A DNA stretch of 64,000 bases, taken from NCBI RefSeq assembly GCF_030442035.1, contig NZ_JAUJEA010000001.1:525559-589558 (forward strand), in the 5' to 3' direction. The DNA is from Splendidivirga corallicola (GTDB taxonomy: Bacteria; Bacteroidota; Bacteroidia; Cytophagales; Cyclobacteriaceae). The notes beneath the pieces are model-generated. The model was not told the DNA's origin and made no database searches. It saw only the letters and a list, made by a program, of their open reading frames with translations. Shown here in pieces: positions 2,282 through 33,079 of the stretch; the first letter of the stretch is position 1, and each line of letters begins with the position of its first letter. Both the position numbers and the translations under genes were made by a program.

Positions 2282-2462
2282 GATCGTTAAGTTATTTCTA
2301 AAGTTAGCTTAAATATCAATTTGACAATTTATACCCAATTCACATGCCACAATAGTTAAAAGTCTGAAATTAAACAAGTTAACTCCTTAATATTCAGTTT
2401 TTATTACAAAAAATTGTATCAAAAACGAACACTTTTATGAACAATAGTGCACAATTGAAATT

Positions 2463-2506
2463 GGTTTCAGGTTTCAGGTTTCAGGTTTCAGGTTTCAGGT
2501 TTCAGG
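2463..2506. repeat. (GGTTTCA)x6 tandem heptanucleotide repeat
   Basis: Six perfect direct copies read directly in the sequence. Lies about 180 bp upstream of the minus-strand gene 1943-2281. Confidence 0.9.
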
Positions 2507-10699: not shown

Positions 10700-10870
10700 T
10701 CTGTTGAAAAGTGTTAAAGTTGGAAAGTATAAAAGTAGTAAAATTCGATGCAAGCCTTTAAGTTCAAGGGATTGGTTTTATGACCTTCAAATTGTTCATA
10801 GACAAAATAAACCCTGAAACCTGCTACCTGAAAGCACAACTTAATACCATTGATTCATATATTTACTACT

Positions 10871-12699: not shown

Positions 12700-13571
12700 T
12701 ACAGCTTTCGCTATACAAAAAGCTTCAAGCCAATCATGGTGAAATGATATTGGATATTGACATCCAAATACAGTCGGGACGATTAGTTGCTATCTATGGT
12801 GAATCAGGTGCCGGCAAAACATCAATTCTTCGTATGCTGGCTGGATTGTTTCATCCTGAAAAGGGTAAGATCATTGTTAACAATCAAACATGGTTAGACT
12901 GTAGTGAAGCCATAAATCTCAAACCACAAAAAAGAAAGATTGGCTATGTATTTCAGGATCTGGCTTTGTTCCCAAACATGTCGGTCAGAGAAAATCTGTT
13001 GTTCGCATTGGATAAAGGTCAAAAAAGTGATATTGTGGATGAATTGATCTCCATAATGGAACTTCATAAGCTGGAAACCCGTAGTCCGGATACATTGTCA
13101 GGTGGTCAAAGACAGCGTGTCGCTTTGGCCAGGGCACTTGTTAAGCAACCCGATCTTTTACTTCTGGATGAGCCTCTCTCTGCGATAGACCATCAAATGC
13201 GTAGCAAATTGCAAGATTACATTTTGGAAGTTCACAAGAAATTCCAGCTCACCACAATCCTCGTGAGTCATGATATTACAGAAGTCTTTAAACTATCCGA
13301 TCATATCATAGTATTAGAAAATGGCCGCATTCAAAAACAGGGAAGTCCTTCCGAAGTATTTTCCGGAAAAAATATGAGTGGCAAATTTCAGTTCACAGGA
13401 GATATTCTAAGCATAGAAAAAGAAGAGGTAGTCCACATTGTCTCCGTGTTAATTGGAAATAATATCGTCAAAGTAATTGTTACTGAAGAAGAAGCAAATG
13501 ATCTATCGGTAGGCAACAAAGTCATCGTAGCCTCCAAAGCGTTTAATCCGATTATCAGGAGGATTGGATAG
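12690..13571 (+). CDS. modC: molybdate ABC transporter ATP-binding protein with C-terminal TOBE domain
   Basis: Walker A GESGAGKTS, signature LSGGQRQRVALARAL, Walker B LLLLDEP, and a C-terminal TOBE-like extension. Confidence 0.8.
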   Translation: MGMIQLSLYKKLQANHGEMILDIDIQIQSGRLVAIYGESGAGKTSILRMLAGLFHPEKGKIIVNNQTWLDCSEAINLKPQKRKIGYVFQDLALFPNMSVRENLLFALDKGQKSDIVDELISIMELHKLETRSPDTLSGGQRQRVALARALVKQPDLLLLDEPLSAIDHQMRSKLQDYILEVHKKFQLTTILVSHDITEVFKLSDHIIVLENGRIQKQGSPSEVFSGKNMSGKFQFTGDILSIEKEEVVHIVSVLIGNNIVKVIVTEEEANDLSVGNKVIVASKAFNPIIRRIG

Positions 13572-13670
13572 CAGCTGCTTGAAACATCGGATTTTAATTA
13601 TTCTTTTCTTCATAGCAGAAATGAAGATCAGCATTTATCATTCATTTGTATTTTAATTTTTAGCAATAGT

Positions 13671-13898
13671 TTGAATACAAAAAAATATATAACCGATGGA
13701 GAAGGGCTTCCCAAATGGACTAATCCGATCAGTCACGCAGTTGTTGTCAATAATATGTGCTTTGTCAGTGGTCAGTTATCTGTTAATGAAGAAGGAGAAT
13801 ATGTGCCAGGTGATATTTTAGCCGAGACAAAACTGGCTTTCTCCAATTTGTTTACTGCTCTTCGACATGCAGGATTCACAAAAGAAGATATCAATTAG
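13671..13898 (+). pseudogene. RidA/YjgF-family (endoribonuclease L-PSP-like) gene fragment truncated at a repeat insertion
   Basis: The 75-aa translation (…ISHAVVVNNMCFVSGQLSVNEEGEYVPGD…ETKLAFSNL…) matches the N-terminal ~60% of RidA proteins (about 125 aa expected). The frame stops at TAG 13896-13898, 2 bp before the repeat unit that begins at 13901. Confidence 0.5.
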
Positions 13899-13900
13899 GG

Positions 13901-14348
13901 ATATATCGTCCCCAGGGGACTCTTATTTAGAGGAATAATCGTCTATAAATATTAGGTCCCTAACGGGACCATGTATTTACAATGCATAAACTTATGAAGA
14001 GTAGAAGTAATCTCAGTTCGATGATAGAATCCACCTTAATCGCTCGCAACCGCAATTATTTCTTGGTTATGGAAACTTATTGACGACAGAATGTCAAGGT
14101 TAAAAGCATTTAAGATTGTTGTCTGAATCAAAAACCTTTCCTGTCTCTAATTTAATTTCAGGCATTTGAGCTTATTCAGTCCCACGGGGGATTTAAATAT
14201 TTATAAACTCAGATAATCAAGTCATATTATTCCCAAAAAGATTCACTTAACATTAAAGAAACATAATGTATGCTTCGTGTCCCGCTAGGGACTCAATATT
14301 TATAGATAATATTCAACCACCACAGAAGTCCCATTAGGGACGATATAT
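13901..14348. mobile_element. composite MITE/BIME-like element: two inverted ~72-bp double-palindrome units flanking ~300 bp
   Basis: The unit 13901-13970 (ATATATCGTCCCCAGGGGAC…CTATAAATATTAGGTCCCTAACGGGACC) is the reverse complement of 14278-14348 (GTCCCGCTAGGGACTCAATATTTATAGA…GTCCCATTAGGGACGATATAT). Each unit carries two GTCCC-N3-4-GGGAC palindromes. A degenerate third palindrome lies at 14179-14191. Confidence 0.5.
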
Positions 14349-14431
14349 AAAATTTATAATCAAATCATGGTAACAGCAAAGCAATTATGTTTAAGTTAGC
14401 ATTTTTTCAACGCTTAAAATTGATATAAAAA

Positions 14432-15331
14432 ATGAAACCTTTTCATTTATTTTTATTGCTTGTTCTTTGTGCATGTAATCAATCTTCCGATCAGACAGAT
14501 GTAAATCAAGGAGAATGGATCTCCCTTTTCAATGGTAAAGACCTCGATGGCTGGAATATCAAGATCGCCGGATTTGATCTGGATGAAAATTATAATCAAA
14601 CTTTCCTGGTGCAGGACAGTATGATCCGCATCAGCTATGATGCCTATGAGGAGTTTAATGATGCTTATGGTCACATGTATTATGAACAACCTTTTTCTCA
14701 CTATAGGCTGCGTTTTGAATATCGCTTTGTAGGAGAACAATTAAAAGGCGGTGCCAGTTGGAATATTCGAAATAGTGGAATTATGCTTCACTCTCAATCT
14801 GCTGCGAGTAATGAAAAAGGTCAGCATTTTCCGGTATCGGTAGAATTACAATTACTAGGAGGTTTGGGAGAAGGTAACAGAACTACAGCTAATGTTTGTA
14901 CTCCGGGAACTGCAGTTGAAATGAACGGTGAAGTGAACTATCAGCATTGCATAAGTTCGAACTCAAAAACATACCATGGAGACCAATGGGTGCAGGCTGA
15001 AGCTATTGTAATGGGAGATGAATCAATGGTATTTCTTATCGAAGGTGACACTGTTCTTAGCTTTGAAAAACCACAAATTGGCGGTGGCTTTATTACTCGG
15101 AACAACACTGAAGAGGATTGGAAAAGCTTTGGCATTCATGATTACAAAAGTTGGATTGAAAAAGCCGGAATCACTTTAAAGGAAGGTTATATAGCACTTC
15201 AGGCTGAAAGTCATCCCATTGATTTTCGAAATATTGAATTGCTCAATCTTTGCGGATGCATGGATATTAAGGCCAAGAACTACAGATCTTATTATGTAAA
15301 AGATGATAAAGCTAGTTGTGTGTATGAGTGA
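14432..15331 (+). CDS. DUF1080-family (3-keto-disaccharide hydrolase-like) lipoprotein
   Basis: Lipobox (LLLVLCAC), then GEWISLFNGKDLDGWNIK, the characteristic DUF1080 N-terminal motif. Overall concanavalin-like beta-sandwich composition. Confidence 0.65.
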   Translation: MKPFHLFLLLVLCACNQSSDQTDVNQGEWISLFNGKDLDGWNIKIAGFDLDENYNQTFLVQDSMIRISYDAYEEFNDAYGHMYYEQPFSHYRLRFEYRFVGEQLKGGASWNIRNSGIMLHSQSAASNEKGQHFPVSVELQLLGGLGEGNRTTANVCTPGTAVEMNGEVNYQHCISSNSKTYHGDQWVQAEAIVMGDESMVFLIEGDTVLSFEKPQIGGGFITRNNTEEDWKSFGIHDYKSWIEKAGITLKEGYIALQAESHPIDFRNIELLNLCGCMDIKAKNYRSYYVKDDKASCVYE

Positions 15332-15359
15332 TTGTTAACATCGGAAATATTCGAAACGT

Positions 15360-15395
15360 ACGCTGCAATGATAATAAACTTCATTGCAGTGCATT
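15360..15395. terminator. hairpin terminator between convergent genes
   Basis: CTGCAATGA-loop-TCATTGCAG 9-bp stem followed by a T-rich tract. Lies between the 3' ends of 14432-15331(+) and 15443-16519(-). Confidence 0.45.
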
Positions 15396-15442
15396 GTTTC
15401 CATTTATATTTTTAACAGAAGGAATGCTTTCAGAACTGAGCG

Positions 15443-16519
15443 CTACTTCAATTCATTCATAACACTCGAAAAAGTGCCCCAGTCCTCATCATTCAGGCTA
15501 TTCCCCATGAAAAAAGTGACTCCTTGTGCTCCATTTTCAATGCATGTTTCCACCACCTTGGGAATACCAAATTGACGGACATGACCAAGGTGTAGCCCTG
15601 CATATAATTTGGCTTTCTTCTTTTTTAATATTTTGGCATCTTCTTTTACCACATTTGCTACCCATTCCAGATCACCATTGTAATCTTTAAAATAGATCAT
15701 CGGCATAAAAGCATCCAGATTAAAACGCTCCCAATCCTGGCGCACCAGGTCTCTTGCTATGGTTGGTGTTGGAAAAACTGCTGCTGAAATTTCCTTTCCG
15801 GTCTTATGCACTTCGTCAGCCACAGCATTCACTACTTCTACCAATTGATCAAGTCGCCATTGTCTCCATACTTTACTTTTTGTAGGATCCTCCATTTCCA
15901 ATGGGTCTGTCCCGTGTTCTTCCTTGAATTTGCTCCGGCAAACCTCACAGTAGCAAAAATCAAATTCCGGCATTTCATGATCCTGGACAAGATTATATTT
16001 GGGTTGTAAAGCTATGGGGAGAATCACATCGCAATATCTCACATAATCAAGATGTACACCGGTAAGGCCATCAATTTTGCAAAGGGTAGTATAATCCTCT
16101 ATCAACAATTGTTTCACTTCCGGTCTTGAAGGACATAACCAGCGATAGTAACCTACATAGGGTGGTTTATCAACTACTGAATCTCCATTACGGCTAACAG
16201 CATACCATTCCGGATGATCCTTCATATGGCCTCCTCTGTTCATAGTCCATCGCCAGGCATGGAACTCCAGACCTACCTCTTTGCAGAGTTTGCCAAGTCT
16301 TTCATAATAGCTGTTACCACCTGAAGGCAATATGCCATGAATATGGTTGTCCTTCATTTTCAACAGGAAATCCCTTAGCTCCTGATCGCTACTTTTAGCA
16401 CCTCCACGCAGCCATGCCCAATTTTTATATTGCTTTTTTTTCTCCGAAATGCCAGTAAATCCGGAGCTAAGTGCCACTGTGGTAATTCCTAATACCTCTA
16501 TAAATTTTCTCCTTTTCAT
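15443..16519 (-). CDS. Tat-signal secreted TIM-barrel protein, glycoside-hydrolase-like family 10 (GHL10/DUF187)-like
   Basis: N-terminus MKRRKFIEVLGITTVALSSG is a twin-arginine-type signal. Segments …GLEFHAWRWTMNRGG… and …GVHLDYVRY… resemble GHL10 family proteins. Assignment from memory, not searched. Confidence 0.45.
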   Translation of the reverse strand: MKRRKFIEVLGITTVALSSGFTGISEKKKQYKNWAWLRGGAKSSDQELRDFLLKMKDNHIHGILPSGGNSYYERLGKLCKEVGLEFHAWRWTMNRGGHMKDHPEWYAVSRNGDSVVDKPPYVGYYRWLCPSRPEVKQLLIEDYTTLCKIDGLTGVHLDYVRYCDVILPIALQPKYNLVQDHEMPEFDFCYCEVCRSKFKEEHGTDPLEMEDPTKSKVWRQWRLDQLVEVVNAVADEVHKTGKEISAAVFPTPTIARDLVRQDWERFNLDAFMPMIYFKDYNGDLEWVANVVKEDAKILKKKKAKLYAGLHLGHVRQFGIPKVVETCIENGAQGVTFFMGNSLNDEDWGTFSSVMNELK

Positions 16520-16792
16520 CTTAATTTGGTTTGCCGTTCCGCCTTTAATGACATTAAATCATAAAGCAAACCCCGATACATTGGAAGCTCAGATTTCCTT
16601 TATTTGAAACCCATCGACATCTTCACCATGGATCTCCCTGATTATGAGTACAAAGCAGCATTATAAAAAAATTGAATATGAAACAAAAAATTACTCTTTT
16701 CCTTCCTGCAAGAAAATGAGCATGTATTCAATTCAAAAAAGTGTATTTTGGCAGCAAATTTTTTTGTTTTATTTGAAAAAAATCAAAACCAA

Positions 16793-17500
16793 ATGAACGA
16801 AACTCAATCACACTTTCAACCACTAAATGTTGTCTCAGAATCTGAGAAAGCAGAATTTATCAGGCAAACTTATTTGCATGTAACCTTTGCCGTATTGGGC
16901 TTTGTAGTGCTGGAATTAATTTTATTTCAAACCGGTGTGGCCTACAGTATTGCATCACTGATGTTGAGCGGACAATACACCTGGCTCATTGTTCTTGGTG
17001 GATTTATGTTCGTCTCCTATCAAGCTGAAAAATGGGCAAGATCCAGTACTTCCAAGCAAATGCAATATGCCGGACTATTCCTTTATACTTTGGGAGAAGC
17101 CATCATTTTTGTGCCGTTATTAATGATTGCAGCTTCTTTTTCCGGTGGAGAATTAATCCAAAAAGCAGCACTTATGACGATTTTCTTATTTGTTGGTTTG
17201 ACCATTGTAGTATTCACAACAAAAAAGGACTTTTCATTTTTAAGAAATGTGCTGGTTGTTGGAGGTTTTGTAGCTATGGGACTTATTGTTTTAGGCATCA
17301 TTTTTGGCTTTGAACTGGGGCTTTTCTTTTCATTTGCCATGGTAGCGCTGGCAGCTGGTAGTATTCTGTACCAAACTTCCAATTTAATTCATCACTATCA
17401 AACAGGACAGCATGTAGCTGCAGCACTAGCTTTATTTGCTTCATTGATGCTATTATTTTGGTACATTCTAAGAATCTTCATTGCATTGAGTGATGATTAG
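16793..17500 (+). CDS. BAX inhibitor-1 / YccA-family membrane protein
   Basis: Seven TM helices. N-terminal …IRQTYLHVTFAVLGFVV… and overall length are typical of the BI-1/YccA family. Start set at MNETQ. Confidence 0.7.
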   Translation: MNETQSHFQPLNVVSESEKAEFIRQTYLHVTFAVLGFVVLELILFQTGVAYSIASLMLSGQYTWLIVLGGFMFVSYQAEKWARSSTSKQMQYAGLFLYTLGEAIIFVPLLMIAASFSGGELIQKAALMTIFLFVGLTIVVFTTKKDFSFLRNVLVVGGFVAMGLIVLGIIFGFELGLFFSFAMVALAAGSILYQTSNLIHHYQTGQHVAAALALFASLMLLFWYILRIFIALSDD

Positions 17501-17530
17501 GAGTAAACATTGATTAAGAGAATTGAATAA

Positions 17531-17925
17531 ATATATCATCCCTACAGGACTAGGCTAATTTACTTGATAATGCTACAAATATCTGGTCCCTAATGGGACC
17601 GGATACTCCTGTTTGTTCACAACAATATGGAATCAAAAACCGGCCATGACCGTCATTAGAATCAAATAATCTATGGGTATCTAAATTAATAAGATAAAAA
17701 ATCTAAAATATGGGTCAAAATTAAAGCATTTTGAAATAATTGAATTTGCGAAACCTGTCAGCTGATCCTCAATTATGATTTTTCATCAAAGAAAGAACTT
17801 TGGAATTGAACCTCTTTTGACTTTATATCCATTAGATTGAAAAATGTAGTATGTCCCAATAGGGACTCAATATTTATAGAAAAAAATATCAACCAAAATA
17901 AAGTCCCATAGGGACGATATATTTA
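17531..17925. repeat. second composite element of the ~72-bp double-palindrome repeat family
   Basis: Direct unit 17853-17925 (GTCCCAATAGGGACTCAATATTTATAGA…GTCCCATAGGGACGATATAT) is near-identical to 14278-14348. A degenerate inverted unit lies at 17531-17602 (ATATATCATCCCTACAGGAC…GGTCCCTAATGGGACC). The ~250-bp sequence between them is not similar to copy 1. Confidence 0.45.
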
Positions 17926-17967
17926 AATCAGGAAGGATCTTTATTCAAAAGCCTTTGATTATTGTTT

Positions 17968-19521
17968 CTAATAAAGCTCCCACTTCCCTTTTCTGTAATA
18001 TTGATAAAGCACGGGGTTATGGATTTTGTTGACCTCAACTTCGGTGCCGGCATCAAGGAAAACATCCTTTCCAAAAGATGTCATGAGGGTCATGGCATCA
18101 TGGTTAAGCCATTTAGTCTCTATCTCATCAAAATGCAATGATTGAAGTGCTCTTTTAAAAGCTTCCGCACTCAAAGCCTTAGAGCCTGCAATCCATCCCC
18201 ATTCTCCCAGAGTCAATACCTGATTGTGCATTGGAACCGTTGAAAAACCTGCTTCCTGCATGGAAATTTCTATGCACTTAAAGGCCCTGGATGCATAATA
18301 AGGACTAGTAGCCTGCGTGATGATCAAACCGTCCGGTCGAAGTTGTTTATAACATAGTTTATAGAACTCAAAGGAATACAACCGGCCTAATTCAACTGTT
18401 TTGGGATCAGGAAGGTCAATGATAATTACATCAAAATACTGCTTTGAACGTTCCATGAAAGAAAAAGCATCTTCATTAATTACCTGCACCAGAGAATCAT
18501 TCAAAACTCCTTCATTGAGCTCCAATAAAACAGGGTGGGTTTTACCCAGATCAGTCATTGCCGGATCCAGATCGACAAGTACAACTTCCTCCACAGACGG
18601 ATATTTTAAAATTTCCCGGACAGCACAACCATCCCCTCCTCCCAATACCAATATGTTTTTAGGATATCTATGAAGCGACATCAGCGGCAATACCAGCGGT
18701 TCATGGTACATTTCTTCATCAACAGTACTAAGTTGCTGATTGCCATTGATAAATAACCAATAATCATTTTTATTCCTCGTAAGAACGATTTTCTGGTATT
18801 TACTTTGTTCTGTATAGACTACTCTGTCAGTGTATCTTCTTTCTTCCCCAAAACTTATGAGCGGCTTTGATACAATAACACCACCCAACAGCGCTAATGT
18901 GATGGCACATGCAAAAGCCGTGAACTTACGTTTTACGTTTGTTTCGATATGCTTCCAAAGCATAAAAAACAAAAGCAGCGCCACCAAAAAATTGATGGTA
19001 CCAAGAATAAAGGGTGTATAGGTAAGTCCTAAATAAGGCAATCCAACAAAGGCAAAAAAAACACCACCCAGCAGGCTGCCATAGTAATCTTTCTCCAGTA
19101 TTGATGAGACATTTATACGCAGTTCTTCAAATGCATCATTAAGGCGAATCACCAGGGGAATTTCCATACCGATCAGCAATCCTATAATGATACTTAAGCC
19201 ATAAATAACCAATCCAGTATAAATACCGAATGCTGAGGTTGTATAGGTAAGCAAAGACACGTAAGCAGCAAGGATTGAAAGAAAAAACTCAATGGTTATG
19301 AACTTTTGCAGGAGATTTCGTTCAAAGTATTTGCTGATCCTACTACCCAGCCCCATCGAAAATAACATGATGGATACAATCATGGTCCATTGAAACACTG
19401 AATTCCCCAGAAAATAAGTGGCTAGTGTCGAAAGTATATACTCAGCCACAATTCCGGAAAGTCCGGTAGCAAACAAGGCAATTTTCAGAATGTTGGACCT
19501 GATCTTATGAGTAAGTTGCAT
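17968..19521 (-). CDS. membrane-anchored spermidine-synthase-like polyamine aminopropyltransferase (SpeE-like)
   Basis: N-terminal ~220 aa with 6-7 TM helices. C-terminal SpeE fold with ILVLGGGDGCAVREILKY…VVLVDLDPAM…IIIDLPDP, the SAM-binding and catalytic-D motifs of aminopropyltransferases. Confidence 0.8.
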   Translation of the reverse strand: MQLTHKIRSNILKIALFATGLSGIVAEYILSTLATYFLGNSVFQWTMIVSIMLFSMGLGSRISKYFERNLLQKFITIEFFLSILAAYVSLLTYTTSAFGIYTGLVIYGLSIIIGLLIGMEIPLVIRLNDAFEELRINVSSILEKDYYGSLLGGVFFAFVGLPYLGLTYTPFILGTINFLVALLLFFMLWKHIETNVKRKFTAFACAITLALLGGVIVSKPLISFGEERRYTDRVVYTEQSKYQKIVLTRNKNDYWLFINGNQQLSTVDEEMYHEPLVLPLMSLHRYPKNILVLGGGDGCAVREILKYPSVEEVVLVDLDPAMTDLGKTHPVLLELNEGVLNDSLVQVINEDAFSFMERSKQYFDVIIIDLPDPKTVELGRLYSFEFYKLCYKQLRPDGLIITQATSPYYASRAFKCIEISMQEAGFSTVPMHNQVLTLGEWGWIAGSKALSAEAFKRALQSLHFDEIETKWLNHDAMTLMTSFGKDVFLDAGTEVEVNKIHNPVLYQYYRKGKWELY

Positions 19522-19600: not shown

Positions 19601-19685
19601 GGAAATTACGAATTCCAAATGACGAATTACGAATGAAAATAGCTCATTATTCGCCATCGTAATTCGTAATTTAAAATTCGTAACT
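19601..19685. promoter_or_regulatory. clustered TTACGAAT-type repeats forming a 13-bp stem-loop in the DUF350 to SpeE-like intergenic region
   Basis: GAAATTACGAATTCC at 19601-19615. ACGAATTACGAATG (19621-19634) pairs with ATCGTAATTCGT (19655-19667). Further ATTCGTAA copies to 19685. Also AGAAAGCG-GCAC-GCTTTCT hairpin at 19717-19739. Confidence 0.3.
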
Positions 19686-22094: not shown

Positions 22095-22229
22095 CTTATT
22101 TTTATTAATGAGTTTTTAGAAATTACCTAAGCTTATTTTTATTACCACCAAGATATAAATAATACCGCACCTCCCCTATTTTGCTACTTATATTTAATAA
22201 GGAAGAAATGATAGTTATTAACACCTTGT

Positions 22230-25200
22230 TTAGTCATTCTTTTTGTTCTTTTGTATAGCATCTTTTATTCCTGATAATCCACTTGTAATCGACTCCATTT
22301 GCTCCAATACCTGCCCCATTTGATTACCAACACCAAAACCTTTTAACCTTTGTTTTCTTTGGAAAGCACTTTTAATTTCCTCCCATCGCTTCTTCTCATC
22401 TTTAGAGATTGCTTTACGCATTTCCTTGAACTTTAACAAATTGGCTTCCGCTCCCGTTGTCAAAGTTTGTGCCTCATTTTCATAATGCGACATGATTAAA
22501 GTGTTCAGCTCATCATCGTTCATCACAGGCACAATCTTTTCGGAAATTTTATTCATATCTCTGTAGGAGCCTTGTAGTTTGAATTGAGGCTCAGTTCTGT
22601 ATTCATCAGCCTGTCCGGCGGAATAGATATATTCCTTGTTAACCATCAAAATGATATCACGGGCAAATAGCAATTTTTTAATTATGCTGATATACTCATT
22701 GATTTCTTCAGCGGCATGATTTGTTTCGAATTCGATTCCTTCTCTATCACCGGTTTCTGCCACATTTATTAAAGTATAAACATCTTTTCTACTCTTACTT
22801 TGCAGTTTATTTAAAATCGGATTAGAGGTAAGACTGTTTTCTAAATAGCTGAGTTTAAATACATCATCAGAGTCCCCAATGATGTCTCCAAGATTATAGA
22901 TATCAGCCCTGTTGGCCAACATATCAGGTATTCTAAACTTCTCACCACTCTCAGTATAAGGGTTACCGGCCATCACCACACAAACCTTTTTACCTCTAAA
23001 ATCATAGGTTTTACTTCTCCCCTTATAAACACCTTCTATCTTTCTTTGTGCATCACATAATGAAATGAATTTCTGTAAGAACTCCGGATTGCAATGCTGA
23101 ATGTCATCCAGGTAGATCATCACATTGTCGCCCATCTCAAAGGCTAAATTCAATTTTTCCAGCTCTTCTCTTGCTCCGGCATTTGGTGCTTCCTCCGGAT
23201 CCACGGCAGTAACTTCATGTCCGATGGCCGGACCGTTTATCTTCATGAAAATCAGGCCTAATCGGTTGGCTAGATATTCCATTAGTGTGGTCTTTCCATA
23301 ACCTGGCGGAGAGATCAATAATAACATTCCCATTAAATCCGTCCGCTTACCTTCGCCTGCTGCTCCGATTTGTTTGGCTAAGTTGGCTCCGATCAATGGC
23401 AGATACACCTGATCAATTAATCTGTTTCTGACAAAAGATGAAAGCACCCGAGGTCTGAACTCATTGAGTCTTAGTTCACTTTCAAACTCATGAATAAGTT
23501 GTTTTTTCAGATCGGTATATTTATCATAGAGAGGAACTATGTGGCTTTCGTAGTGATCAAGTTTCTTAATAAAGGTGTTATAATTGAAATGATAAACTTG
23601 CTCCTCAATGGTGGCATGTGATCCTTGAAGGCCTGTCAGATCTTCATGCAAAGCAACATGAATAATATTCTGTTTCTTAAAATCCTTTGTTAATAATAAA
23701 CATGCGGTTTCATCAATGTAATCAATCCATTCAATTTTGTCCTCCTGTGTAACATAGGCCTTTAACCAATGCTGGATAAGATTGAACTGCAGAAGTGGCT
23801 TATCATTAAGAGAATTAATGGATTTGTCATATTCATTTTTGACTCTTTTCTTTTTTAAGTAAGCGCCGAAGGCCTCATAAAGTGCCGCTGATTCCATATC
23901 AATTACAAAATTGTCCCCTCGGCTCAACTCATAGAATAAATATTCTGACGCCTGCTGACTAATGGCAGGCTCAAACAATTGTGTTTGCTCTAAGAAAAGG
24001 TCGAGCGCTCTTTTGAGCCTCATTTTAATGTTATCAAATTCCCTGGTCTCAGGAAACACCTGGAGTATTGTACCAACACCTTTTAACTGATTTTGCAAGT
24101 CTTGTTTTTCTTCAATCGAAGCAAAGGTCTTCCAATAGAGTGTTGCACATGCTCTTGCCTCTGAAGAATACCTTAAAAGGTCAGCTGTACTGATTATTTT
24201 GATAAGTGCCTGCAAAATAATGCTGGCATCATGATCATGAATTCCTTTTACATAGCCCTCATTATATCGAACAGCCATAAAGCTTCTCACATAATCGATT
24301 AATTCTTTATTGCTTAATTTGAATAAAGCCTCAACTCCCGGTACACTTTGTTCTTGCTCTTTCCTACTTTTATGTATGGAAGCCTGCAATACCTTAAAGG
24401 CTAAATACTCTCCTCTGTAGACTGCGTTATTCTCTGAAATGATATGCTGATCCCAAACTTCTCTGCAGGAATTAAACGTTTCATGGATAATTTCCTCAAA
24501 AAAATTGGTTCCCGTAAGATGATATTGCATCGACCCATCCCTATAAATAATAGTAAGGTCAAGGGGTTGTGTGTTAACTGAGAACTGATATTTACCAAAT
24601 TGAATCAAATTCTCACCATCCACGAAAAGCTCCGTTTTATCCTTTAACTGCCGGATGGCATCCTCTTTAACTGTCTTCAAACGACTCTGAATGTCATCTG
24701 ACTTCACAGTATCACCAATATCAATAAGCTCCTGAACGATATCTCTTATCTTTTCTATCATGAGGTCAGAAGCGAAATAGCCATTTATTTCTTTTGGATC
24801 ATCAAATCTGGCGACCCTGCTTTTGGCAGCATTTAATATTCTATCGGCAGCTTGTAATAAGTTATTAGCTCTTCTGTTTCTATTCTCAATGAGATTTACC
24901 TTTTTGGACTCAAAGGCATTGTATATCTCTTCCCTTTTAATGGTGATTTTTTCAATGAACTCATCGAATTCCGAGAATTTACCTTCCAGTTCCTCCAGTT
25001 GCACCATTAACTTAGTGAGGTATTCATCACATTTTTCCGGGGTATCACAAATATCCAGATAGTTGATTACACCCTGATCAATCAATTTGACTTGAGCGTT
25101 GAACTCAGCTTTTCCTTCAACGCTTAGTAATTCCTTTCTTCTCCTTTTTAGTGATGCCCTTATTTGATTAAAACCGGAGTAGATAGCCGAAATATTATCT

Positions 25201-27170
25201 ATGATCTTAGTCGTGTGGGTAGCATCCTCAATATTAAGGTTGGTAACTATTTCAATGAGCATTTCCAGTTCTTGTGAAACAATATCAATTTCATTCTCCA
25301 GCTCATTGGCATCAAATACTTTTTTAACTTTCGTTACAGCAGATTCAATTTTCTCCACCCGTGTTTGATATGGTTTCAGCGCCTGCTCCTTCAAAAGGAA
25401 GCTTACACAAGCTGATGAAACTTTATCAGTTATTTCATAAATACCCTTTTCCAAAAGTTCCACCTTTTGAACCTCTACGTAACGGAGTTCTTTAAGACCG
25501 ATCAATTCTCCTTTTATTGTTCGAAGCGCAGCCAGATATTGAACAAAGTCATCGATATTGGCGGCCTTTTTCCTTTTAATGTCTGTAACCAACTTCTCAG
25601 ATGCCTGCGTTACTCTGAGGACTTCTCGTTCGGTATTCTTTTTAATGCTGCTTACCTTCTCATACTCCGAAACAGCTGATGAAGCTGTTTCCTTGATAGC
25701 AAACAGTGGTTCACTTAGTTCATAGGATTCCTGTTTTCCCAGCCAATGATAACTATCAACAATATCTGTCGTGCGCTTGATAAGCTCACCATACAAGTCA
25801 GTATAGCTATCCTCTTTTTGCAAGAGTGTTAGTATTTCATGGCATTCTGCCATGGCCCTAACCACTTCCTTATTACCTATCTTGTATAAATAGGAATCAT
25901 TATTAGCGTTAATTTGAAAATCCGGCCCTACATAAGGCGTTTGCCAAATTTGAATAGCATGATGCTTTTTTGCCTCTTCATCAGCCCTGAAATTGATTTG
26001 CTCGCCATTTTCAAATAAGGAATAACCATGGCAAACCAATGGATTCTCCACGGCCTGTTCAATAAGATTATAAGGAAGCAAAAGGTATATCCCGGATTCT
26101 TTATTGTAAAAAACATAAAGAAAATCTTCTCCATTTGGAGAGGCGATTCTCTTTTCAAAGAGCATATGGTCTAACTGATTATCAAATTGCTTAACCTCTC
26201 CGGTCTGCAGATAATAACCATTGGAAAAGATGACGCCATGATCGTCCGGCAACAACACACAGGCATCTTTTAAGGCATCTATTCTTCTAGCTTCTTGCAG
26301 CTTGGCATTGTACACAATATATCGGTAGTCTTTCTCCTGGTAAGGCCTGATTTTTAAAACAATAATGTTACCAACGATTGCATAGTAAATCTCGGCATCT
26401 TCCAATCTCTGTTCCCGGTGTTCAACTTTCTCTGTATAAATGCCGCTTCCTTCATCCGTATTATCTTCAATCTTGATGGTTAAAGATCCTCCAATAGTTT
26501 CTACGAAAACCTTGTCTTCAATACTGATATGAGGAAATTTACCTTCTCTATGTAGATCCCGGTTAGTCCTTTTCCACTCGAATTCATGCTGCTGGGGGAA
26601 TACATATTCATGATCGCTTCGATTGTCGACATACTCAAGTTTGTCCCCTTTTACTAACCATTTAAATGTTTTGATATCCTCAGCATCTTTTCCAACTCTG
26701 AAAACCATATGAATATGAGGTCCGATCTCGGCAAACTTTATAAACCTTGTATTTTTATAATATTTATAAAGCTTTGAAAAATCATCCTTGAATACCTTGT
26801 CCTCAATTAATGTCAAGGGCATGGTATGAAAGCTATGATCACTATACCGATAAACACTAAAAACATCTGATAAGGCTGTCTCTGTCTTTAGGCCTAGGTG
26901 AACATTGTATCCAAAAATGAAAAATGACCCTATTGCTACCATGTCTGTGGGAACACAGTTGTTTTCCGTATTCACCCTTTCAGTGGATTTCAGCACAGTA
27001 TCAATAGAGCCAAATACTTCTTTCCGTACATTATTAAGCTGGTTCAACCGTTTTCTAAGCTCCTGTCCACTTTGGAGTATACGGTTGCGCAATATTTCAT
27101 ACGTTCCTTCTTCCAATTGTACAGATTGAACCTGATCAGAATTGTTTTCTATATTTTGATTTTCAGACAT
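22230..27170 (-). CDS. 1646-aa coiled-coil protein with C-terminal AAA+ ATPase domain (AAA_5 / dynein-MoxR-like subtype); function unknown
   Basis: Single uninterrupted ORF. Walker A ISPPGYGKTT encoded at about 23289-23315 (minus strand). Walker B and downstream helix MIYLDDIQHCNPEFLQKFISLCD fit the AAA_5 hhhhDEin..p.vl..L..ll pattern. Arg-finger candidates in …GNPYTESGEKFRIPDMLANRADIY…. The preceding ~1280 aa are E/K/L-rich heptad-type coiled coil plus unassigned globular segments. No TM helices. Confidence 0.75.
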   Translation of the reverse strand: MSENQNIENNSDQVQSVQLEEGTYEILRNRILQSGQELRKRLNQLNNVRKEVFGSIDTVLKSTERVNTENNCVPTDMVAIGSFFIFGYNVHLGLKTETALSDVFSVYRYSDHSFHTMPLTLIEDKVFKDDFSKLYKYYKNTRFIKFAEIGPHIHMVFRVGKDAEDIKTFKWLVKGDKLEYVDNRSDHEYVFPQQHEFEWKRTNRDLHREGKFPHISIEDKVFVETIGGSLTIKIEDNTDEGSGIYTEKVEHREQRLEDAEIYYAIVGNIIVLKIRPYQEKDYRYIVYNAKLQEARRIDALKDACVLLPDDHGVIFSNGYYLQTGEVKQFDNQLDHMLFEKRIASPNGEDFLYVFYNKESGIYLLLPYNLIEQAVENPLVCHGYSLFENGEQINFRADEEAKKHHAIQIWQTPYVGPDFQINANNDSYLYKIGNKEVVRAMAECHEILTLLQKEDSYTDLYGELIKRTTDIVDSYHWLGKQESYELSEPLFAIKETASSAVSEYEKVSSIKKNTEREVLRVTQASEKLVTDIKRKKAANIDDFVQYLAALRTIKGELIGLKELRYVEVQKVELLEKGIYEITDKVSSACVSFLLKEQALKPYQTRVEKIESAVTKVKKVFDANELENEIDIVSQELEMLIEIVTNLNIEDATHTTKIIDNISAIYSGFNQIRASLKRRRKELLSVEGKAEFNAQVKLIDQGVINYLDICDTPEKCDEYLTKLMVQLEELEGKFSEFDEFIEKITIKREEIYNAFESKKVNLIENRNRRANNLLQAADRILNAAKSRVARFDDPKEINGYFASDLMIEKIRDIVQELIDIGDTVKSDDIQSRLKTVKEDAIRQLKDKTELFVDGENLIQFGKYQFSVNTQPLDLTIIYRDGSMQYHLTGTNFFEEIIHETFNSCREVWDQHIISENNAVYRGEYLAFKVLQASIHKSRKEQEQSVPGVEALFKLSNKELIDYVRSFMAVRYNEGYVKGIHDHDASIILQALIKIISTADLLRYSSEARACATLYWKTFASIEEKQDLQNQLKGVGTILQVFPETREFDNIKMRLKRALDLFLEQTQLFEPAISQQASEYLFYELSRGDNFVIDMESAALYEAFGAYLKKKRVKNEYDKSINSLNDKPLLQFNLIQHWLKAYVTQEDKIEWIDYIDETACLLLTKDFKKQNIIHVALHEDLTGLQGSHATIEEQVYHFNYNTFIKKLDHYESHIVPLYDKYTDLKKQLIHEFESELRLNEFRPRVLSSFVRNRLIDQVYLPLIGANLAKQIGAAGEGKRTDLMGMLLLISPPGYGKTTLMEYLANRLGLIFMKINGPAIGHEVTAVDPEEAPNAGAREELEKLNLAFEMGDNVMIYLDDIQHCNPEFLQKFISLCDAQRKIEGVYKGRSKTYDFRGKKVCVVMAGNPYTESGEKFRIPDMLANRADIYNLGDIIGDSDDVFKLSYLENSLTSNPILNKLQSKSRKDVYTLINVAETGDREGIEFETNHAAEEINEYISIIKKLLFARDIILMVNKEYIYSAGQADEYRTEPQFKLQGSYRDMNKISEKIVPVMNDDELNTLIMSHYENEAQTLTTGAEANLLKFKEMRKAISKDEKKRWEEIKSAFQRKQRLKGFGVGNQMGQVLEQMESITSGLSGIKDAIQKNKKND

Positions 27171-27281
27171 TTAGTGTTTTAAATTTCTGCTTTCAGTTCT
27201 TAGCTTTAATTAATTACAAATTTCAAATTACCAAATAGCGACTTACAGTTGATAACACTAACGGTTAACAGCTTAGATAAA

Positions 27282-27983
27282 TTAAACCGTAAAGTATTCT
27301 TCCAACTCTTTCAAAGTATTCTCACTGGTTTTAATATCATGGATGATATTTCCTTTCTCTAACACCACGATTCTTTCACATACTTCCGTTACATGGTTTA
27401 AGTCGTGACTGGATATCAGCATGGTTACCTGTTTTTCATGTTTCAATTCCAACAATCTCTTTTTCAACCTTATTTGGGTAGTAGGATCAAGGTTGGCAAA
27501 TGGCTCGTCTAAAACTATTATTTCAGGATCAATCATCAAAGCTGCCGCAATACCTACCTTTTTTTGATTTCCCTTGGAAAGATCCCGAATGTATTTCTTC
27601 ACTCCTCTGATCTCACCATTGAACACTTCCTCAAAAGAATTTAGAAAACTTTCCACATCTCCTTTTGAAAGCCCATGAATATTTGCAATAAAGTTGAAAT
27701 ATTCATCAGGTGTCAGGAAATCAATCAAAAACCCCTCATCCAGGTAAGATCCGGTATATTTCTTCCACTCTTCGTTTTCACTTACGACTACATCATTGGA
27801 TTTAACCATTCCGTTATTTGGTCTAATGAGATCCAGGATCATTCTGAAAAGTGTTGTTTTTCCAGCGCCATTGTTACCAACAAGACCGAAACTTTCCCCT
27901 TTTGAAATGTTCAATTCGGGAACGTTAACAACTTCTATTTCTTTATAGGATTTTTTAAGATCGTTTATTTCTATTATGTTCAT
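27282..27983 (-). CDS. ABC transporter ATP-binding protein
   Basis: Walker A GNNGAGKTT, ABC signature LSKGNQKKVGIAAAL, Walker B IIVLDEP, H-loop SSHDL. Confidence 0.85.
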   Translation of the reverse strand: MNIIEINDLKKSYKEIEVVNVPELNISKGESFGLVGNNGAGKTTLFRMILDLIRPNNGMVKSNDVVVSENEEWKKYTGSYLDEGFLIDFLTPDEYFNFIANIHGLSKGDVESFLNSFEEVFNGEIRGVKKYIRDLSKGNQKKVGIAAALMIDPEIIVLDEPFANLDPTTQIRLKKRLLELKHEKQVTMLISSHDLNHVTEVCERIVVLEKGNIIHDIKTSENTLKELEEYFTV

Positions 27984-28031
27984 CTCTTCGATTTTATTTA
28001 TTTGTGAATTGTGTAATGGTTTGACTTGAGA

Positions 28032-29510
28032 TCAGACTTGCCTGAAACCTGATGCTATAATGTATTTTCTATTATTATATCTTTTTTCTAAAAGTTGAAG
28101 CCAGTAGTCCTTCAAAATAAATCCTACTATACCCATTGTTGCCAACAAGCCCACTCCTACCCACGGAATATCAAACAACATGAATGGCACCGCCAGAAGT
28201 ATCGGCCCAAGCAAGAATGGAAGAACCAAAATAAACTGCGTAGCGCTTATACCTTCATAATTGAAAGCTGCACCCTTACTCAGATCTACCTTCTTAGGGT
28301 TTTTTAACCCAAAATAAAGGATCGTAAATGAGTTCACGCCTATATTAAAAAGACAGCATGCCAGGTTGATGATTACTACTTTCCACCCAAAATATATATA
28401 AGGTATGCTTAAGACAAAGGCAATGGCTGAACTGGCCACAAACAACCACATTTTCGATTCAAGGTAATCCCTTGCACTGATATTGCTTGATAGTATTTTA
28501 TCAAAAAAACTACTGTGCCAGCTCAAGAGTAACTGGCCATAGTTGCTTAGGAAAATCCCGGTAATGAAAATCCCAACAAATATTAGAAAGCCAAATCCCT
28601 CCAGGTAGATATCATTGGTGTAAAAGATCAATCCATACAACAAAAAAGCAACGCTCAGATAGAATATTGATTTTGGTCTTTTGTTTCTTAGAATAAGCTT
28701 CATTTCCAAGGCTATGAAGTGACCAATTTTGCCATATCTATCCAAAAATGAAGTATTGAGTTCTTTGTATTCGTTTTTCTTCCTTCCAATTTGAATCTCT
28801 TCTAAGTAAGCATTTCGTTTTAAAAAATTATAGTTGATATAATAGGCGAGCCCTATCATTCCTAAGATAACCAGTAGCAGTAAAGGATTTCCGGCAATGG
28901 CGGAAAAAGTAGCAGACGCAAACTGAGAAATATTCAAAAGTTGAAAATAATCAGCAGCAGCCAGTGAGAGTAGCAGCAAAGCAAAGATCAACACAACCTT
29001 GGCATTTCCAGCTAATTGTCTCTTTATATGGATGGCCAGGAAGTTGCTGAATAAGATCATTCCGCATACTCCCAAAAACCAGTAAAGTGCACCATTACTA
29101 CCCACAGTTCCGGGTGCCACTTTAATAGCGAATGGAATAAAGATCAGCAAAGGCAGGTAATTGAAAAAGCTTACCAGCGATTTGGAGAGCATAAAATGTA
29201 TCATTTTGCCCTTCTTGATAGGTAAGTGAAGATAGGGTGTTATGGAAAGTACGGGTACATCCTGCAGGAAGAACCTCATTAGTATATCCATACCCAAATA
29301 GTAAAATAAGAAACTGTTAAATACGGTAAATGGATCTTGGTCAGGAAAAACATTTTTTAGGATCTCATCAATAAAAAAACCAAGCAATAAGAGATAGGCC
29401 ATCATTATAAAAATGAAGATGCCCAACACAATGTTAACACCAGTGCTACTATTAAATCTCGTTGCCCGGAAAGTCTCCTTCCATTGATGATCAATGAGCC
29501 ACTTTATCAT
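28032..29510 (-). CDS. polytopic membrane protein, putative permease partner of the ABC ATPase
   Basis: 492-aa ORF with about 12 TM helices. Sits immediately upstream of the ABC ATPase with a 48-bp gap. No family recognised by eye. Confidence 0.55.
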   Translation of the reverse strand: MIKWLIDHQWKETFRATRFNSSTGVNIVLGIFIFIMMAYLLLLGFFIDEILKNVFPDQDPFTVFNSFLFYYLGMDILMRFFLQDVPVLSITPYLHLPIKKGKMIHFMLSKSLVSFFNYLPLLIFIPFAIKVAPGTVGSNGALYWFLGVCGMILFSNFLAIHIKRQLAGNAKVVLIFALLLLSLAAADYFQLLNISQFASATFSAIAGNPLLLLVILGMIGLAYYINYNFLKRNAYLEEIQIGRKKNEYKELNTSFLDRYGKIGHFIALEMKLILRNKRPKSIFYLSVAFLLYGLIFYTNDIYLEGFGFLIFVGIFITGIFLSNYGQLLLSWHSSFFDKILSSNISARDYLESKMWLFVASSAIAFVLSIPYIYFGWKVVIINLACCLFNIGVNSFTILYFGLKNPKKVDLSKGAAFNYEGISATQFILVLPFLLGPILLAVPFMLFDIPWVGVGLLATMGIVGFILKDYWLQLLEKRYNNRKYIIASGFRQV

Positions 29511-30287: not shown

Positions 30288-30303
30288 ATTATTTATTTTG
30301 TTC

Positions 30304-33068: not shown

Positions 33069-33079
33069 GTATTTAAGTG

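What the first reader, a model, noticed from the sequence alone, without database searches (positions are those of the whole stretch)
13901..14348. Novel ~72-bp double-palindrome repeat unit (2 x GTCCC-N3-4-GGGAC + ATATTTATAGA core) forming inverted-pair composite elements
Four clear units sit in the window at 13901-13970(-), 14278-14348(+), 17531-17602(-, degenerate) and 17853-17925(+). They are arranged as two inverted pairs about 300 bp apart with unrelated internal sequence. The outer termini share ATATATCGTCCC. The architecture resembles BIME/REP-pair or MITE organisation. The paired GTCCC/GGGAC palindromes look like a recognition site for a dimeric protein (REP-associated tyrosine transposase-like, or a nucleoid or termination factor).
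Basis: seen in the sequence. Interest (0 to 1): 0.55.

Follow-up and report, generated by a model that had tools for sequence, protein, structure and literature searches.

The report
REP-like repeats of IS200-type transposase
The four double-hairpin repeats are real and belong to a widespread family of extragenic repeats that, in other bacteria, form the inverted ends of a tiny IS200-like tyrosine-transposase gene, so this is a new example of a known kind of selfish DNA, not a new kind of system.

Summary
There are four about 72-nt units at 13901-13970(-), 14278-14348(+), 17531-17602(-) and 17852-17922(+), plus a decayed half-unit at 14180-14208. Each unit is a direct dimer of an about 50-nt subrepeat: a GTCCC-loop-GGGAC hairpin followed by an AAATAT(TTATAG) motif.

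A pattern scan of one genome per species found the same unit in at least 119 loci. These span Bacteroidota, Ignavibacteriota, Acidobacteriota, KSB1, Calditrichota, Latescibacterota and others. The units are almost always intergenic, and their stems show compensatory changes.

In 13 of those loci, and in 10 of 10 loci reached independently from the protein, two inverted units tightly flank a 153-aa Y1/HUH transposase gene. The GATATAT tails face the gene. The protein matches Pfam Y1_Tnp and NCBIfam IS200 and carries the Y---Q--HH signature. Deletion derivatives that keep only the last transposase codons also occur.

The window's units are therefore REP/BIME-like, non-autonomous copies or relics of this element's ends. 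They sit inside-out relative to the autonomous element, so E1 and E2 are not MITEs bounded by ATATATCG.

The window (Fulvivirgaceae bacterium BMA10) contains no transposase gene. Genome-wide copy number could not be checked. The closest descriptions are REPtrons and TIRtrons. Interest is moderate to low.

The parts
13901..13970 (-). Unit U1. On the + strand it reads: tail ATATATC, outer hairpin GTCCCCAGGGGAC (13908-13920), T-rich variable part, core CTATAAATAT, inner hairpin GGTCCCTAACGGGACC (13955-13970).
   Evidence: (nhmmer E 4.7e-20)
13971..14277 (.). E1 spacer (306-307 bp), unrelated to the E2 spacer. It contains one decayed half-unit.
   Evidence: no significant similarity to the E2 spacer or to the rest of the window
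14180..14208 (+). Decayed half-unit: GTCCCACGGGGGAT followed by TTAAATATTTATAAA (hairpin plus core).
   Evidence: (weak profile hits, E about 0.8), and direct reading
14278..14348 (+). Unit U2: inner hairpin GTCCCGCTAGGGAC (14279-14292), core AATATTTATAGA, variable part, outer hairpin GTCCCATTAGGGAC (14328-14341), tail GATATAT.
   Evidence: (E 4.7e-19)
17531..17602 (-). Unit U3, partly degenerate: tail ATATATC, decayed outer hairpin ATCCCTACAGGAC (17538-17550), core CTACAAATAT, inner hairpin extended to 11 bp (17580-17605).
   Evidence: (E 5.4e-16)
17603..17851 (.). E2 spacer (about 249 bp) with no similarity to the E1 spacer.
17852..17922 (+). Unit U4: inner hairpin GTCCCAATAGGGAC (17853-17866), core AATATTTATAGA, outer hairpin GTCCCATAGGGAC (17903-17915), tail GATATAT.
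   Evidence: (E 9e-19)
13671..13898 (+). Truncated RidA/YjgF (Ribonuc_L-PSP) gene fragment. It stops 2 bp before the tail of U1, and only profile positions 7-66 of 121 are present.
   Evidence: PF01042, E 1.6e-10; C-terminal half absent from the window
14349..17530 (.). Three-gene block lying between U2(+) and U3(-): 3-keto-disaccharide hydrolase-like 14432-15331(+), GHL10-like 15443-16519(-) and Bax1-I family 16748-17500(+). This is the geometry in which the transposase gene sits in autonomous elements, but no transposase is present here.

Best explanation
The four units are non-autonomous copies, or in-situ relics, of the terminal repeats of a widespread, very small (about 0.7 kb) IS200-like element. 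That element's only gene is a 153-aa HUH/Y1 single-strand DNA transposase. Functionally the units are the REP/BIME equivalent of this transposase family.

Anatomy. Each unit is two direct about 50-nt subrepeats. Each subrepeat has a 5-6-bp G+C-rich hairpin (GTCCC, 3-4-nt loop, GGGAC) followed by a conserved A/T motif. That motif is AAATATTTATAG after the first hairpin and GAAATAT after the second.

Shown here:
- The unit is conserved across many phyla.
- It is extragenic.
- Its stems are kept by compensatory changes.
- Two inverted units with tails inward tightly flank the transposase gene.
- One identical transposase with its repeats sits in several different genomic contexts.
- Internal-deletion derivatives retain only the last transposase codons.

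Inferred from what is known of IS608, ISDra2 and E. coli TnpA-REP: the hairpins extrude on single-stranded DNA (the lagging-strand template), are bound by the transposase, and strand-specific cleavage and rejoining next to the A/T motif copies or moves the repeats.

In this genome the units sit at gene ends. They bracket a three-gene block and abut a truncated ridA fragment, so they probably took part in local rearrangement. Read from the neighbouring genes, each begins with a hairpin followed by a T-rich run, so they may also act as terminators or 3'-end stabilisers. That last point is inference only.
For: - My own estimate of the chance expectation is about 4.
- Profile search of those loci: 211 units. 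Most also carry the second hairpin and tail, which were not part of the search pattern. Consensus: tGTCCCgtTAGGGACnaaATATTTaTAGaAaa, about 22 A-rich nt, aAGTCCCnTAGGGACGAaATAt.
- ORF clustering: a 153-aa protein occurs in 13 of 119 8-kb loci and is flanked by unit(+) on the left and unit(-) on the right. Example, L054: unit 1130-1193, gene 1208-1669, unit 1669-1740.
- Protein identity: Pfam Y1_Tnp, E 1e-25. NCBIfam IS200 model 63.6 bits against a cut-off of 55. Nearest solved structures are ISDra2-type TnpA, with the HUH motif and catalytic Tyr aligned.
- Reciprocal test from the protein side: 10 of 10 places encoding P0092 have both flanking units. The same protein lies in at least 2 left and at least 4 right contexts, and similarity breaks about 22-28 nt beyond the inner hairpin.
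- Deletion derivatives with transposase C-terminal remnants occur in L032, L064, L068 and L112.
- Units are intergenic: 4% lie inside ORFs of 150 aa or more, against 70% for random positions.
- Covariation: 92 double-sided changes against 21.5 +/- 3.9 in shuffles (0 of 500 reach the observed value), and far above the slid controls. The outer stem varies as GCTCC/GGAGC and GTTCC/GGAAC in Acidobacteria.
- Terminator-like scan: 7 of the 11 hits in 13400-18400 are unit hairpins.
Against: - No transposase gene of this family lies in the 64-kb window.
- The rest of the BMA10 genome could not be searched, so neither a cognate enzyme nor a genome-wide copy number is shown for this organism.
- No close relative was available for an empty-site comparison, so mobility of these particular copies is not shown.
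- No target-site duplication or defined target was found.
- The window pairs have atypically long spacers (247-306 bp against a mode of 32-44 bp) and the inside-out orientation. Their origin (two independent insertions, a decayed array or a rearrangement scar) is unresolved.
- Cleavage sites and strand specificity are inferred by analogy only.
- Phylum labels come from MAG bins. However, several hits lie on contigs of 0.13-4.9 Mb (L015, L016, L020, L077, L098, L080).
Confidence: 0.75

Rival explanations
1. E1 (13901-14348) and E2 (17531-17925) are each a MITE that transposes as one 400-450-bp piece. On this reading they have about 70-bp terminal inverted repeats ending in ATATATCG and are moved by a DDE-type or other transposase.
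For: Each pair is a clean inverted repeat with shared outer termini. Tails-outward doublets are the commonest arrangement in other genomes: 41 pairs.
Against: - The internal sequences of E1 and E2 are unrelated.
- No target-site duplication is visible.
- In autonomous elements the ATATATCG end faces the transposase gene and is not the element terminus.
- Typical doublet spacers are 32-44 bp and differ between genomes.
- No DDE transposase is enriched near the units.
Confidence: 0.05
2. The units are host regulatory elements, maintained for host function independently of any transposase. Candidates are bidirectional intrinsic terminators, mRNA 3'-end stabilisers, or binding sites of a nucleoid protein.
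For: - The units lie just downstream of gene ends (U1 2 bp after ridA', U3 30 bp after the Bax1-I gene, U4 42 bp after the spermidine-synthase-like gene).
- Read from the gene they give a hairpin plus a T-rich run.
- Stems covary, which is also what an RNA structure would show.
- REPs in E. coli are known to have such side functions (established knowledge).
Against: - A host signal would not be expected to keep the same primary sequence, including loops and the A/T motifs, across more than ten phyla.
- The units flank one particular transposase gene with base-pair precision and decay together with it.
- The stems are short (5-6 bp) for intrinsic terminators.
- No Rfam family matches.
Confidence: 0.1
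3. The four units are a purely local duplication or rearrangement product with no dispersed family.
For: All four lie within 4 kb, and none is found in the other 60 kb of the window.
Against: The same unit occurs in at least 119 loci of other genomes, with the same two-hairpin architecture. The four window copies differ from one another by about 30% (mean column identity 71%), so they are not recent local duplicates.
Confidence: 0.03
4. The units encode or belong to a structured non-coding RNA, for example a small RNA or a guide RNA of a mobile element.
For: The hairpins covary and the units are intergenic.
Against: - No Rfam match.
- Units occur in both orientations relative to neighbouring genes and as inverted pairs or arrays.
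- The region between the hairpins is variable.
- No TnpB/IscB-type gene accompanies them.
Confidence: 0.04

Closest known systems
[quoted passage not shown] 2013, PMC3733652
   Same: A Y1 (IS200/RAYT-like) gene is flanked by long terminal inverted repeats unrelated to GTAG REPs. Some of these repeats are 'double palindromic'. Copies are scattered in the genome as singles, dimers or groups. This is the architecture found here.
   Different: The hairpin sequences found here are absent from that paper's text and supplements; its Figure 9 could not be read. That paper reported moderate, species-specific families. Here one sequence family is shared across many phyla, and the transposase carries the Y---Q--HH signature.
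REP/BIME and REPIN elements with RAYT (TnpA-REP); REPtrons (Nunvar 2010, Bertels and Rainey 2011, Ton-Hoang 2012)
   Same: Short extragenic palindromes occur singly, in inverted pairs and in alternating arrays. A Y1 transposase gene is flanked by inverted copies. Hairpins are maintained by compensatory change. Side roles as terminators are plausible.
   Different: - There is no unpaired 5' GT[AG]G head.
- Stems are only 5-6 bp.
- The unit is a two-hairpin, 72-nt module with conserved A/T motifs.
- The protein fails the NCBIfam RAYT model (23 bits against 80) and lacks the class-2 Y motif.
- The same protein occurs in several contexts and is more than 80% identical between phyla. That looks like an active, horizontally moving IS, not a single-copy, vertically inherited RAYT.
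IS200/IS605 family (IS200, IS608, ISDra2) and their PATE/MITE derivatives
   Same: The transposase passes the IS200 model and aligns with ISDra2 TnpA, including the HUH motif and catalytic Tyr. The element has subterminal hairpins, a very small size and no visible target duplication. Transposase-less derivatives arise by internal deletion.
   Different: Canonical family members have no terminal inverted repeats: their left and right ends differ, and both are read on the same strand. Here the two ends are about 100-bp inverted copies of each other, each with two or three hairpins.
TnpA-Y1 subclass 1.2 of Quentin et al. 2018 (PMC6006769)
   Same: The Y motif Y---Q--HH (YIINQEQHH here), the WQ motif, a length of about 150 aa, a conserved C-terminal extension and occurrence in Bacteroidetes.
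   Different: The HuH motif is NH[IVL]H, not DH[IV]H, and identity to a DHIH-type member (L027) is only 38%. That paper lists 'no' associated secondary structures for the subclass, whereas this clade has a clear cognate repeat.
CGTC-tagged REPs (Di Nocera et al. 2013)
   Same: On the tail strand the unit begins ..ATAT-CGTC-CC.., and such repeats were reported in Bacteroidetes and Chlorobi.
   Different: In CGTC REPs the tag is unpaired, stems are 8-9 bp beginning with A/T pairs, and a CCA tail follows. No transposase is associated with them. Here CGTC overlaps a 5-bp stem and a transposase is associated.

Membership tests
REP/RAYT (REPtron) system | Short imperfect palindromes, extragenic, repeated | tested here: met
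   Hairpins occur in all units. Only 4% of 211 units lie inside ORFs of 150 aa or more, against 70% for random positions. At least 119 loci were found across genomes.
REP/RAYT (REPtron) system | High copy number within the host genome | not testable with these tools
   Only 64 kb of BMA10 is available (4 units).
REP/RAYT (REPtron) system | Conserved unpaired GT[AG]G tetranucleotide at the 5' foot of the hairpin | tested here: not met
   The consensus has no such head. GTAG appears only across the loop and 3' arm (GTCCC-GTA-GGGAC) in about 45% of outer hairpins.
REP/RAYT (REPtron) system | Y1 transposase gene flanked by inverted copies of the repeat | tested here: met
   Seen in 13 of 119 loci from the DNA side and 10 of 10 places from the protein side. 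Not present in the window itself.
REP/RAYT (REPtron) system | Protein is a RAYT by curated model and class-2 motifs | tested here: not met
   NCBIfam NF047646 scores 23.4 bits against a cut-off of 80. The Y motif is YIINQEQHH, not YxxxNP. There was no PDB hit to E. coli TnpA-REP.
REP/RAYT (REPtron) system | Single-copy, vertically inherited transposase | tested here: not met
   The identical protein P0092 lies in at least 2 left and at least 4 right contexts. Proteins labelled as different phyla are 82-86% identical.
IS200/IS605 family | HUH/Y1 transposase (Pfam PF01797, NCBIfam NF033573) | tested here: met
   PF01797 E 1.2e-25. NF033573 scores 63.6 bits against a cut-off of 55. The HUH motif and Tyr align with ISDra2 TnpA.
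IS200/IS605 family | Subterminal hairpins at both ends | tested here: met
   Two to three hairpins at each end.
IS200/IS605 family | No terminal inverted repeats; distinct left and right ends processed on one strand | tested here: not met
   The ends are inverted copies over about 100 bp, including 22-28 nt beyond the inner hairpin.
IS200/IS605 family | No target duplication; insertion 3' of a specific tetra- or pentanucleotide | tested here: inconclusive
   No duplication is seen at the P0092 element ends or at the window units. No common target could be defined.
TIRtron/TIRYT (Di Nocera 2013) | Y1 gene flanked by long inverted repeats unrelated to GTAG REPs, with repeat copies dispersed as singles, dimers or groups | tested here: met
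   definition taken.
TIRtron/TIRYT (Di Nocera 2013) | Identity with one of the published TIR families | not testable with these tools
   Figure 9 is not held. The hairpin strings are absent from the text and supplements and from all searchable papers.
TnpA-Y1 subclass 1.2 (Quentin 2018) | Y---Q--HH signature, about 148 aa, conserved C-terminal domain | tested here: met
   YIINQEQHH, 153 aa and a conserved ...FREEYIELL..YDE.YILKDIQ tail (criteria).
TnpA-Y1 subclass 1.2 (Quentin 2018) | HuH motif DH[IV]H; no flanking secondary structures | tested here: not met
   The motif is NH[IVL]H in all 12 close members. Flanking double hairpins are present.
MITE of a DDE transposon | Terminal inverted repeats plus target-site duplication, with internal sequence shared among copies | tested here: not met
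   No duplication is visible, and the E1 and E2 interiors are unrelated.
CGTC-tagged REP | Unpaired CGTC head, 8-9-bp stem starting with A/T pairs, CCA tail | tested here: not met
   CGTC overlaps the 5-bp stem and there is no CCA tail.

The most novel reading that the evidence does not exclude
This is the previously unrecognised cognate repeat family of the 'subclass 1.2-like' Y1 transposases, which were reported to have no associated DNA structures. Together they form a minimal (about 0.7 kb) single-strand transposon with about 100-bp inverted, multi-hairpin ends. That architecture is not supposed to exist in IS200/IS605. The element moves between phyla of the FCB group, Acidobacteriota and others, and seeds REP/BIME-like arrays there. 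It would be a living intermediate between insertion sequences and domesticated REP/RAYT systems.
Probability: 0.4. Interest if true: 0.5.

Novelty: new member of a known kind. Interest (0 to 1): 0.35.

Why it matters
The finding extends REP/RAYT-type biology, studied mainly in Proteobacteria and Cyanobacteria, to Bacteroidota, Ignavibacteriota, Acidobacteriota and several candidate phyla.

It gives a concrete DNA partner to a Y1 transposase clade that a 2018 survey listed as having none.

It offers a compact, sequence-conserved hairpin/protein pair that could be tested in vitro for single-strand DNA recognition.

For genome annotation, it explains a class of intergenic hairpin repeats. These break metagenome assemblies (many transposase hits lie on contigs of 0.5-1.2 kb) and can mark rearrangement points and pseudogenes, such as the truncated ridA here.

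It does not reveal a new kind of system.

Tried and rejected
- **Rfam**: only chance-level hits over the units, so no described RNA family.
- **Source genome by exact protein**: four window proteins were not on record. A homology search then identified the source as Fulvivirgaceae bacterium BMA10. The next relative is only 71% identical, so no empty-site comparison was possible.
- **Metagenome scan** with the neighbouring 3-keto-disaccharide hydrolase-like protein: only relatives 62-65% identical by tblastn, with no synteny and no units.
- **Synteny with Fulvivirga ulvae and an ENA contig**: gene order is conserved on the 5' side of the spermidine-synthase-like gene and lost exactly at its 3' end, where E2 lies. 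At 68% protein identity this is weak evidence.
- **Transposase and ridA in the window**: tblastn found no transposase and no C-terminal half of RidA.
- **Viral contigs**: 0 matches, so no sign of phage carriage.
- **Conserved sequence beyond the inner hairpin**: none across the family, only lineage-specific extensions. AATGTA about 13 nt upstream is shared by three window units and the P0092 element.
- **Pairing of core ATATTT with tail AAATAT**: considered and rejected, because position 89 varies while its would-be partner is invariant.
- **Literature search by hairpin sequence**: no paper.
- **Rejected from the anatomy**: CRISPR array, integron attC and invertible promoter. The period is 50 nt without spacers, there are no R'/R'' boxes, and E2 lies between convergent gene ends.

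Full report
**1.

The sequence at 13901-14348 and 17531-17925 contains four related units of about 72 nt.
- U1: 13901-13970 (-).
- U2: 14278-14348 (+).
- U3: 17531-17602 (-).
- U4: 17852-17922 (+).

GTCCC-N3-4-GGGAC occurs 7 times in 64 kb, all inside these units, against 0.02 expected from shuffles. The eighth hairpin, the outer one of U3, is decayed. A profile of the four units finds nothing else convincing in the window except a decayed half-unit at 14180-14208 inside E1. The two spacers (306 and 247 bp) are unrelated. Both hairpins of each unit are predicted to fold in single-stranded DNA. The window has 32-40% G+C.

**2. The family is widespread**

I scanned one genome per species for the inner hairpin plus core (GTCCCNNNNGGGACNNNATATTTNTAG, 19 fixed bases). 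My own uniform-composition estimate of the chance expectation is about 4 hits.

By record title the loci come from:
- Bacteroidota (about 36);
- Ignavibacteriota and Kapaibacteria (about 19);
- Acidobacteriota, mainly Pyrinomonadaceae (about 18);
- Desulfobacteraceae and a "delta proteobacterium" (7);
- KSB1 (5), Calditrichota (5) and Latescibacterota (4);
- single MAGs of Balneolales, Fibrobacterota, Neomarinimicrobiota, Edwardsbacteria, Nitrospira, Deferribacteres and Pedosphaera.

Several hits are on contigs of 0.13-4.9 Mb, so mis-binning cannot explain the spread. The same pattern has 0 hits in 2.9 million viral contigs.

A profile search of the loci finds 211 units. Most carry the second hairpin and the tail, which were not in the search pattern. 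The consensus of 163 units is tGTCCCgtTAGGGACnaaATATTTaTAGaAaa, about 22 A-rich nt, aAGTCCCnTAGGGACGAaATAt.

The unit is a direct dimer of an about 50-nt subrepeat, consisting of a hairpin followed by rAAATAT. Three observations support this:
- The hairpins are 48-50 nt apart.
- The tail repeats the start of the core.
- Arrays with a 49-51-nt period occur in L014, L072 and L125.

Units are extragenic: 4% lie inside ORFs of 150 aa or more, against 70% for random positions.

On an alignment of 136 units, the two stems show 92 double-sided (compensatory) changes against 21.5 +/- 3.9 in shuffles. None of 500 shuffles reaches the observed value, which is also far above the slid controls. In Acidobacteria the second stem is GCTCC/GGAGC or GTTCC/GGAAC. 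The structure is therefore selected, as well as the sequence.

**3. The partner protein**

I clustered all ORFs of the 119 loci. One small family (153 aa; MANTYTQIYLQFVFAV..INGMPNHIHVFIGYKP..WQEGYGAFSYS..KYIINQEQHH..YILKDIQ) is present in 13 loci. It is flanked within 0-40 bp by unit(+) on the left and unit(-) on the right, with the GATATAT tails facing the gene.

What the protein matches:
- Pfam Y1_Tnp, E 1e-25.
- The NCBIfam IS200/IS605 model: 63.6 bits against a cut-off of 55.
- Not the RAYT model: 23 bits against a cut-off of 80.
- Its nearest solved relatives are the ISDra2-type TnpA proteins, with the HUH motif and catalytic Tyr aligned.

A database search returns at least 8000 clusters. 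Sources name them 'IS200/IS605 family transposase' or 'REP element-mobilizing transposase RayT'. Proteins labelled Edwardsbacteria or Desulfosarcina are 82-86% identical to a Bacteroidales one.

*Reciprocal test.* I started from proteins in that list.
- P0092 is flanked by both units in all 10 places fetched.
- P0109 has a unit directly after its stop codon.

The identical P0092 protein lies in at least 2 different left and at least 4 different right genomic contexts. Similarity between these copies ends about 22-28 nt beyond the inner hairpin (TTAATAAmTrATGTTAyGCAAA|GTCCC...). The whole element is therefore about 0.7 kb with about 100-bp inverted ends.

Pairs of units with 70-140-bp spacers in L032, L064, L068 and L112 still contain the last codons of the gene (..DYD..YI.KDIQ*). 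Transposase-less derivatives therefore arise by internal deletion.

**4. What the window elements are**

Across the loci, neighbouring units are mostly in opposite orientation.
- Tails outward: 41 pairs, with a modal spacer of 32-44 bp.
- Tails inward: 30 pairs, with spacers of 40-60 bp, or 474-547 bp when the gene is inside.

E1 and E2 are of the tails-outward type, with unusually long spacers. Relative to the autonomous element they are inside-out (right end, spacer, left end). Reading E1 and E2 as MITEs bounded by that sequence is therefore not supported. There is also no target duplication and no shared interior.

Three of the four window units keep an AATGTA about 13 nt beyond the inner hairpin, as the P0092 element does. 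This fits derivation from element ends.

U2(+) and U3(-) bracket three ordinary genes in the geometry where the transposase normally sits. There is no transposase anywhere in the window.

Immediately left of U1 is an ORF matching only positions 7-66 of the 121-position RidA/L-PSP profile. Its C-terminal half is nowhere in the window. Its last codons plus stop (GATATCAATTAG, then GG, then ATATATCGTCCC) resemble the end of the transposase genes (GATATTCAATAA, then (A)TATATCGTCCC). This could mean that a deletion fused ridA to the tail of a former transposase gene. I regard that as speculative.

Compared with Fulvivirga ulvae, gene order is conserved on one side of the spermidine-synthase-like gene and lost exactly where E2 lies. 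At this evolutionary distance that is weak evidence.

Read from the adjacent genes, each unit starts with a hairpin followed by a T-rich stretch. Unit hairpins make up 7 of 11 terminator-like hits in the region. A terminator or stabiliser side-effect is plausible but untested.

**5. Mechanism**

*Shown:*
- the conserved two-hairpin module;
- covarying stems;
- extragenic location;
- precise inverted flanking of a Y1/HUH gene;
- multiple contexts of one identical element;
- deletion derivatives.

*Inferred* from established knowledge of IS608, ISDra2 and E. coli TnpA-REP: the hairpins form on single-stranded DNA at the replication fork and are bound by the transposase. Cleavage and rejoining then occur next to a short conserved motif, here probably the AAATAT that follows each hairpin.

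Which strand is cut, where it is cut, and how tails-outward doublets arise are all unknown.

**6. Comparison with what is known**

- The closest published concept is the TIRtron of Di Nocera et al. 2013 (PMC3733652). It describes Y1 genes flanked by long, sometimes double-palindromic, inverted repeats whose copies are scattered as singles, dimers or groups.
- The behaviour also parallels REP/BIME/REPIN-RAYT systems. The defining GT[AG]G head and the RAYT protein signature are not met.
- By sequence the protein is an IS200-type TnpA with the Y---Q--HH signature of 'subclass 1.2' in Quentin et al. 2018 (PMC6006769). That paper lists no associated structures for the subclass. The clade here differs in its HuH motif (NHIH) and clearly has a cognate repeat.
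- Canonical IS200/IS605 elements lack inverted ends, so that feature is not met either.
- The hairpin strings occur in no searchable paper.

**7. Verdict**

The feature is real and the family is real. Its nature is a new member of a known kind: REP/TIRtron-like repeats of a Y1 transposase. It is interesting mainly for its breadth, and because it gives a DNA partner to a little-studied transposase clade.

The main gaps are the BMA10 genome-wide copy number, the presence of a cognate gene in that genome, and any direct evidence of mobility or cleavage.

Noticed in passing
window 13671-13898 (+): A RidA/YjgF (Ribonuc_L-PSP) gene is truncated after about 75 codons, 2 bp before unit U1. Its C-terminal half is absent from the window. 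Its last codons and stop resemble the 3' end of the transposase genes that normally precede such a unit.
   Followed up: partly
window 19606-19683: A 36-nt imperfect palindrome made of repeated TTACGAATT / AATTCGTAA motifs lies between the DUF350-like gene and the start of the spermidine-synthase-like gene. It looks like an operator for a dimeric regulator. The half-site motif is otherwise almost absent from the window.
   Followed up: partly
window 2462-2488 and 10810-10836: A heptamer run (GGTTTCA)n, TGGTTTCAGGTTTCAGGTTTCAGGTTT, has an 85% complementary partner 8.3 kb away (pair I10). No explanation was sought.
   Followed up: no
window 22100-34090: Relative to Fulvivirga ulvae, about 12 kb is inserted between the DUF4178-like gene and the PspA/YbjN/HTH-S24 genes, which are adjacent in the relative. 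The content was not examined.
   Followed up: no
L019 782, L034 5759, L044 332, L092 5362, L090 about 7320: In Ignavibacteria-like genomes a conserved ATTTTGGACAGATATG lies 12-15 nt beyond the tail of tails-outward doublets. It may be a lineage-specific extension of the element or a preferred target.
   Followed up: partly
L027 4000-4950; L014 4640-4900: A second Y1 transposase of the DHIH/YIKRQEEHH type (141 aa, 38% identical to the one studied) is flanked by a different set of hairpins (CCACGACC-TAAA-GGTCGTGG, CCACGGCT-TTTA-AGCCGTGG). Other hairpin repeats (GTCACCTGAAGGTGAC) sit next to the L014 array. This suggests that further subclass-1.2 transposases also have cognate repeats, contrary to the 2018 survey.
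   Followed up: partly
L027 6715-7623: Four tandem copies (period about 240 bp) of a complete tails-outward doublet plus linker form a BIME-like array of eight units in strictly alternating orientation.
   Followed up: yes
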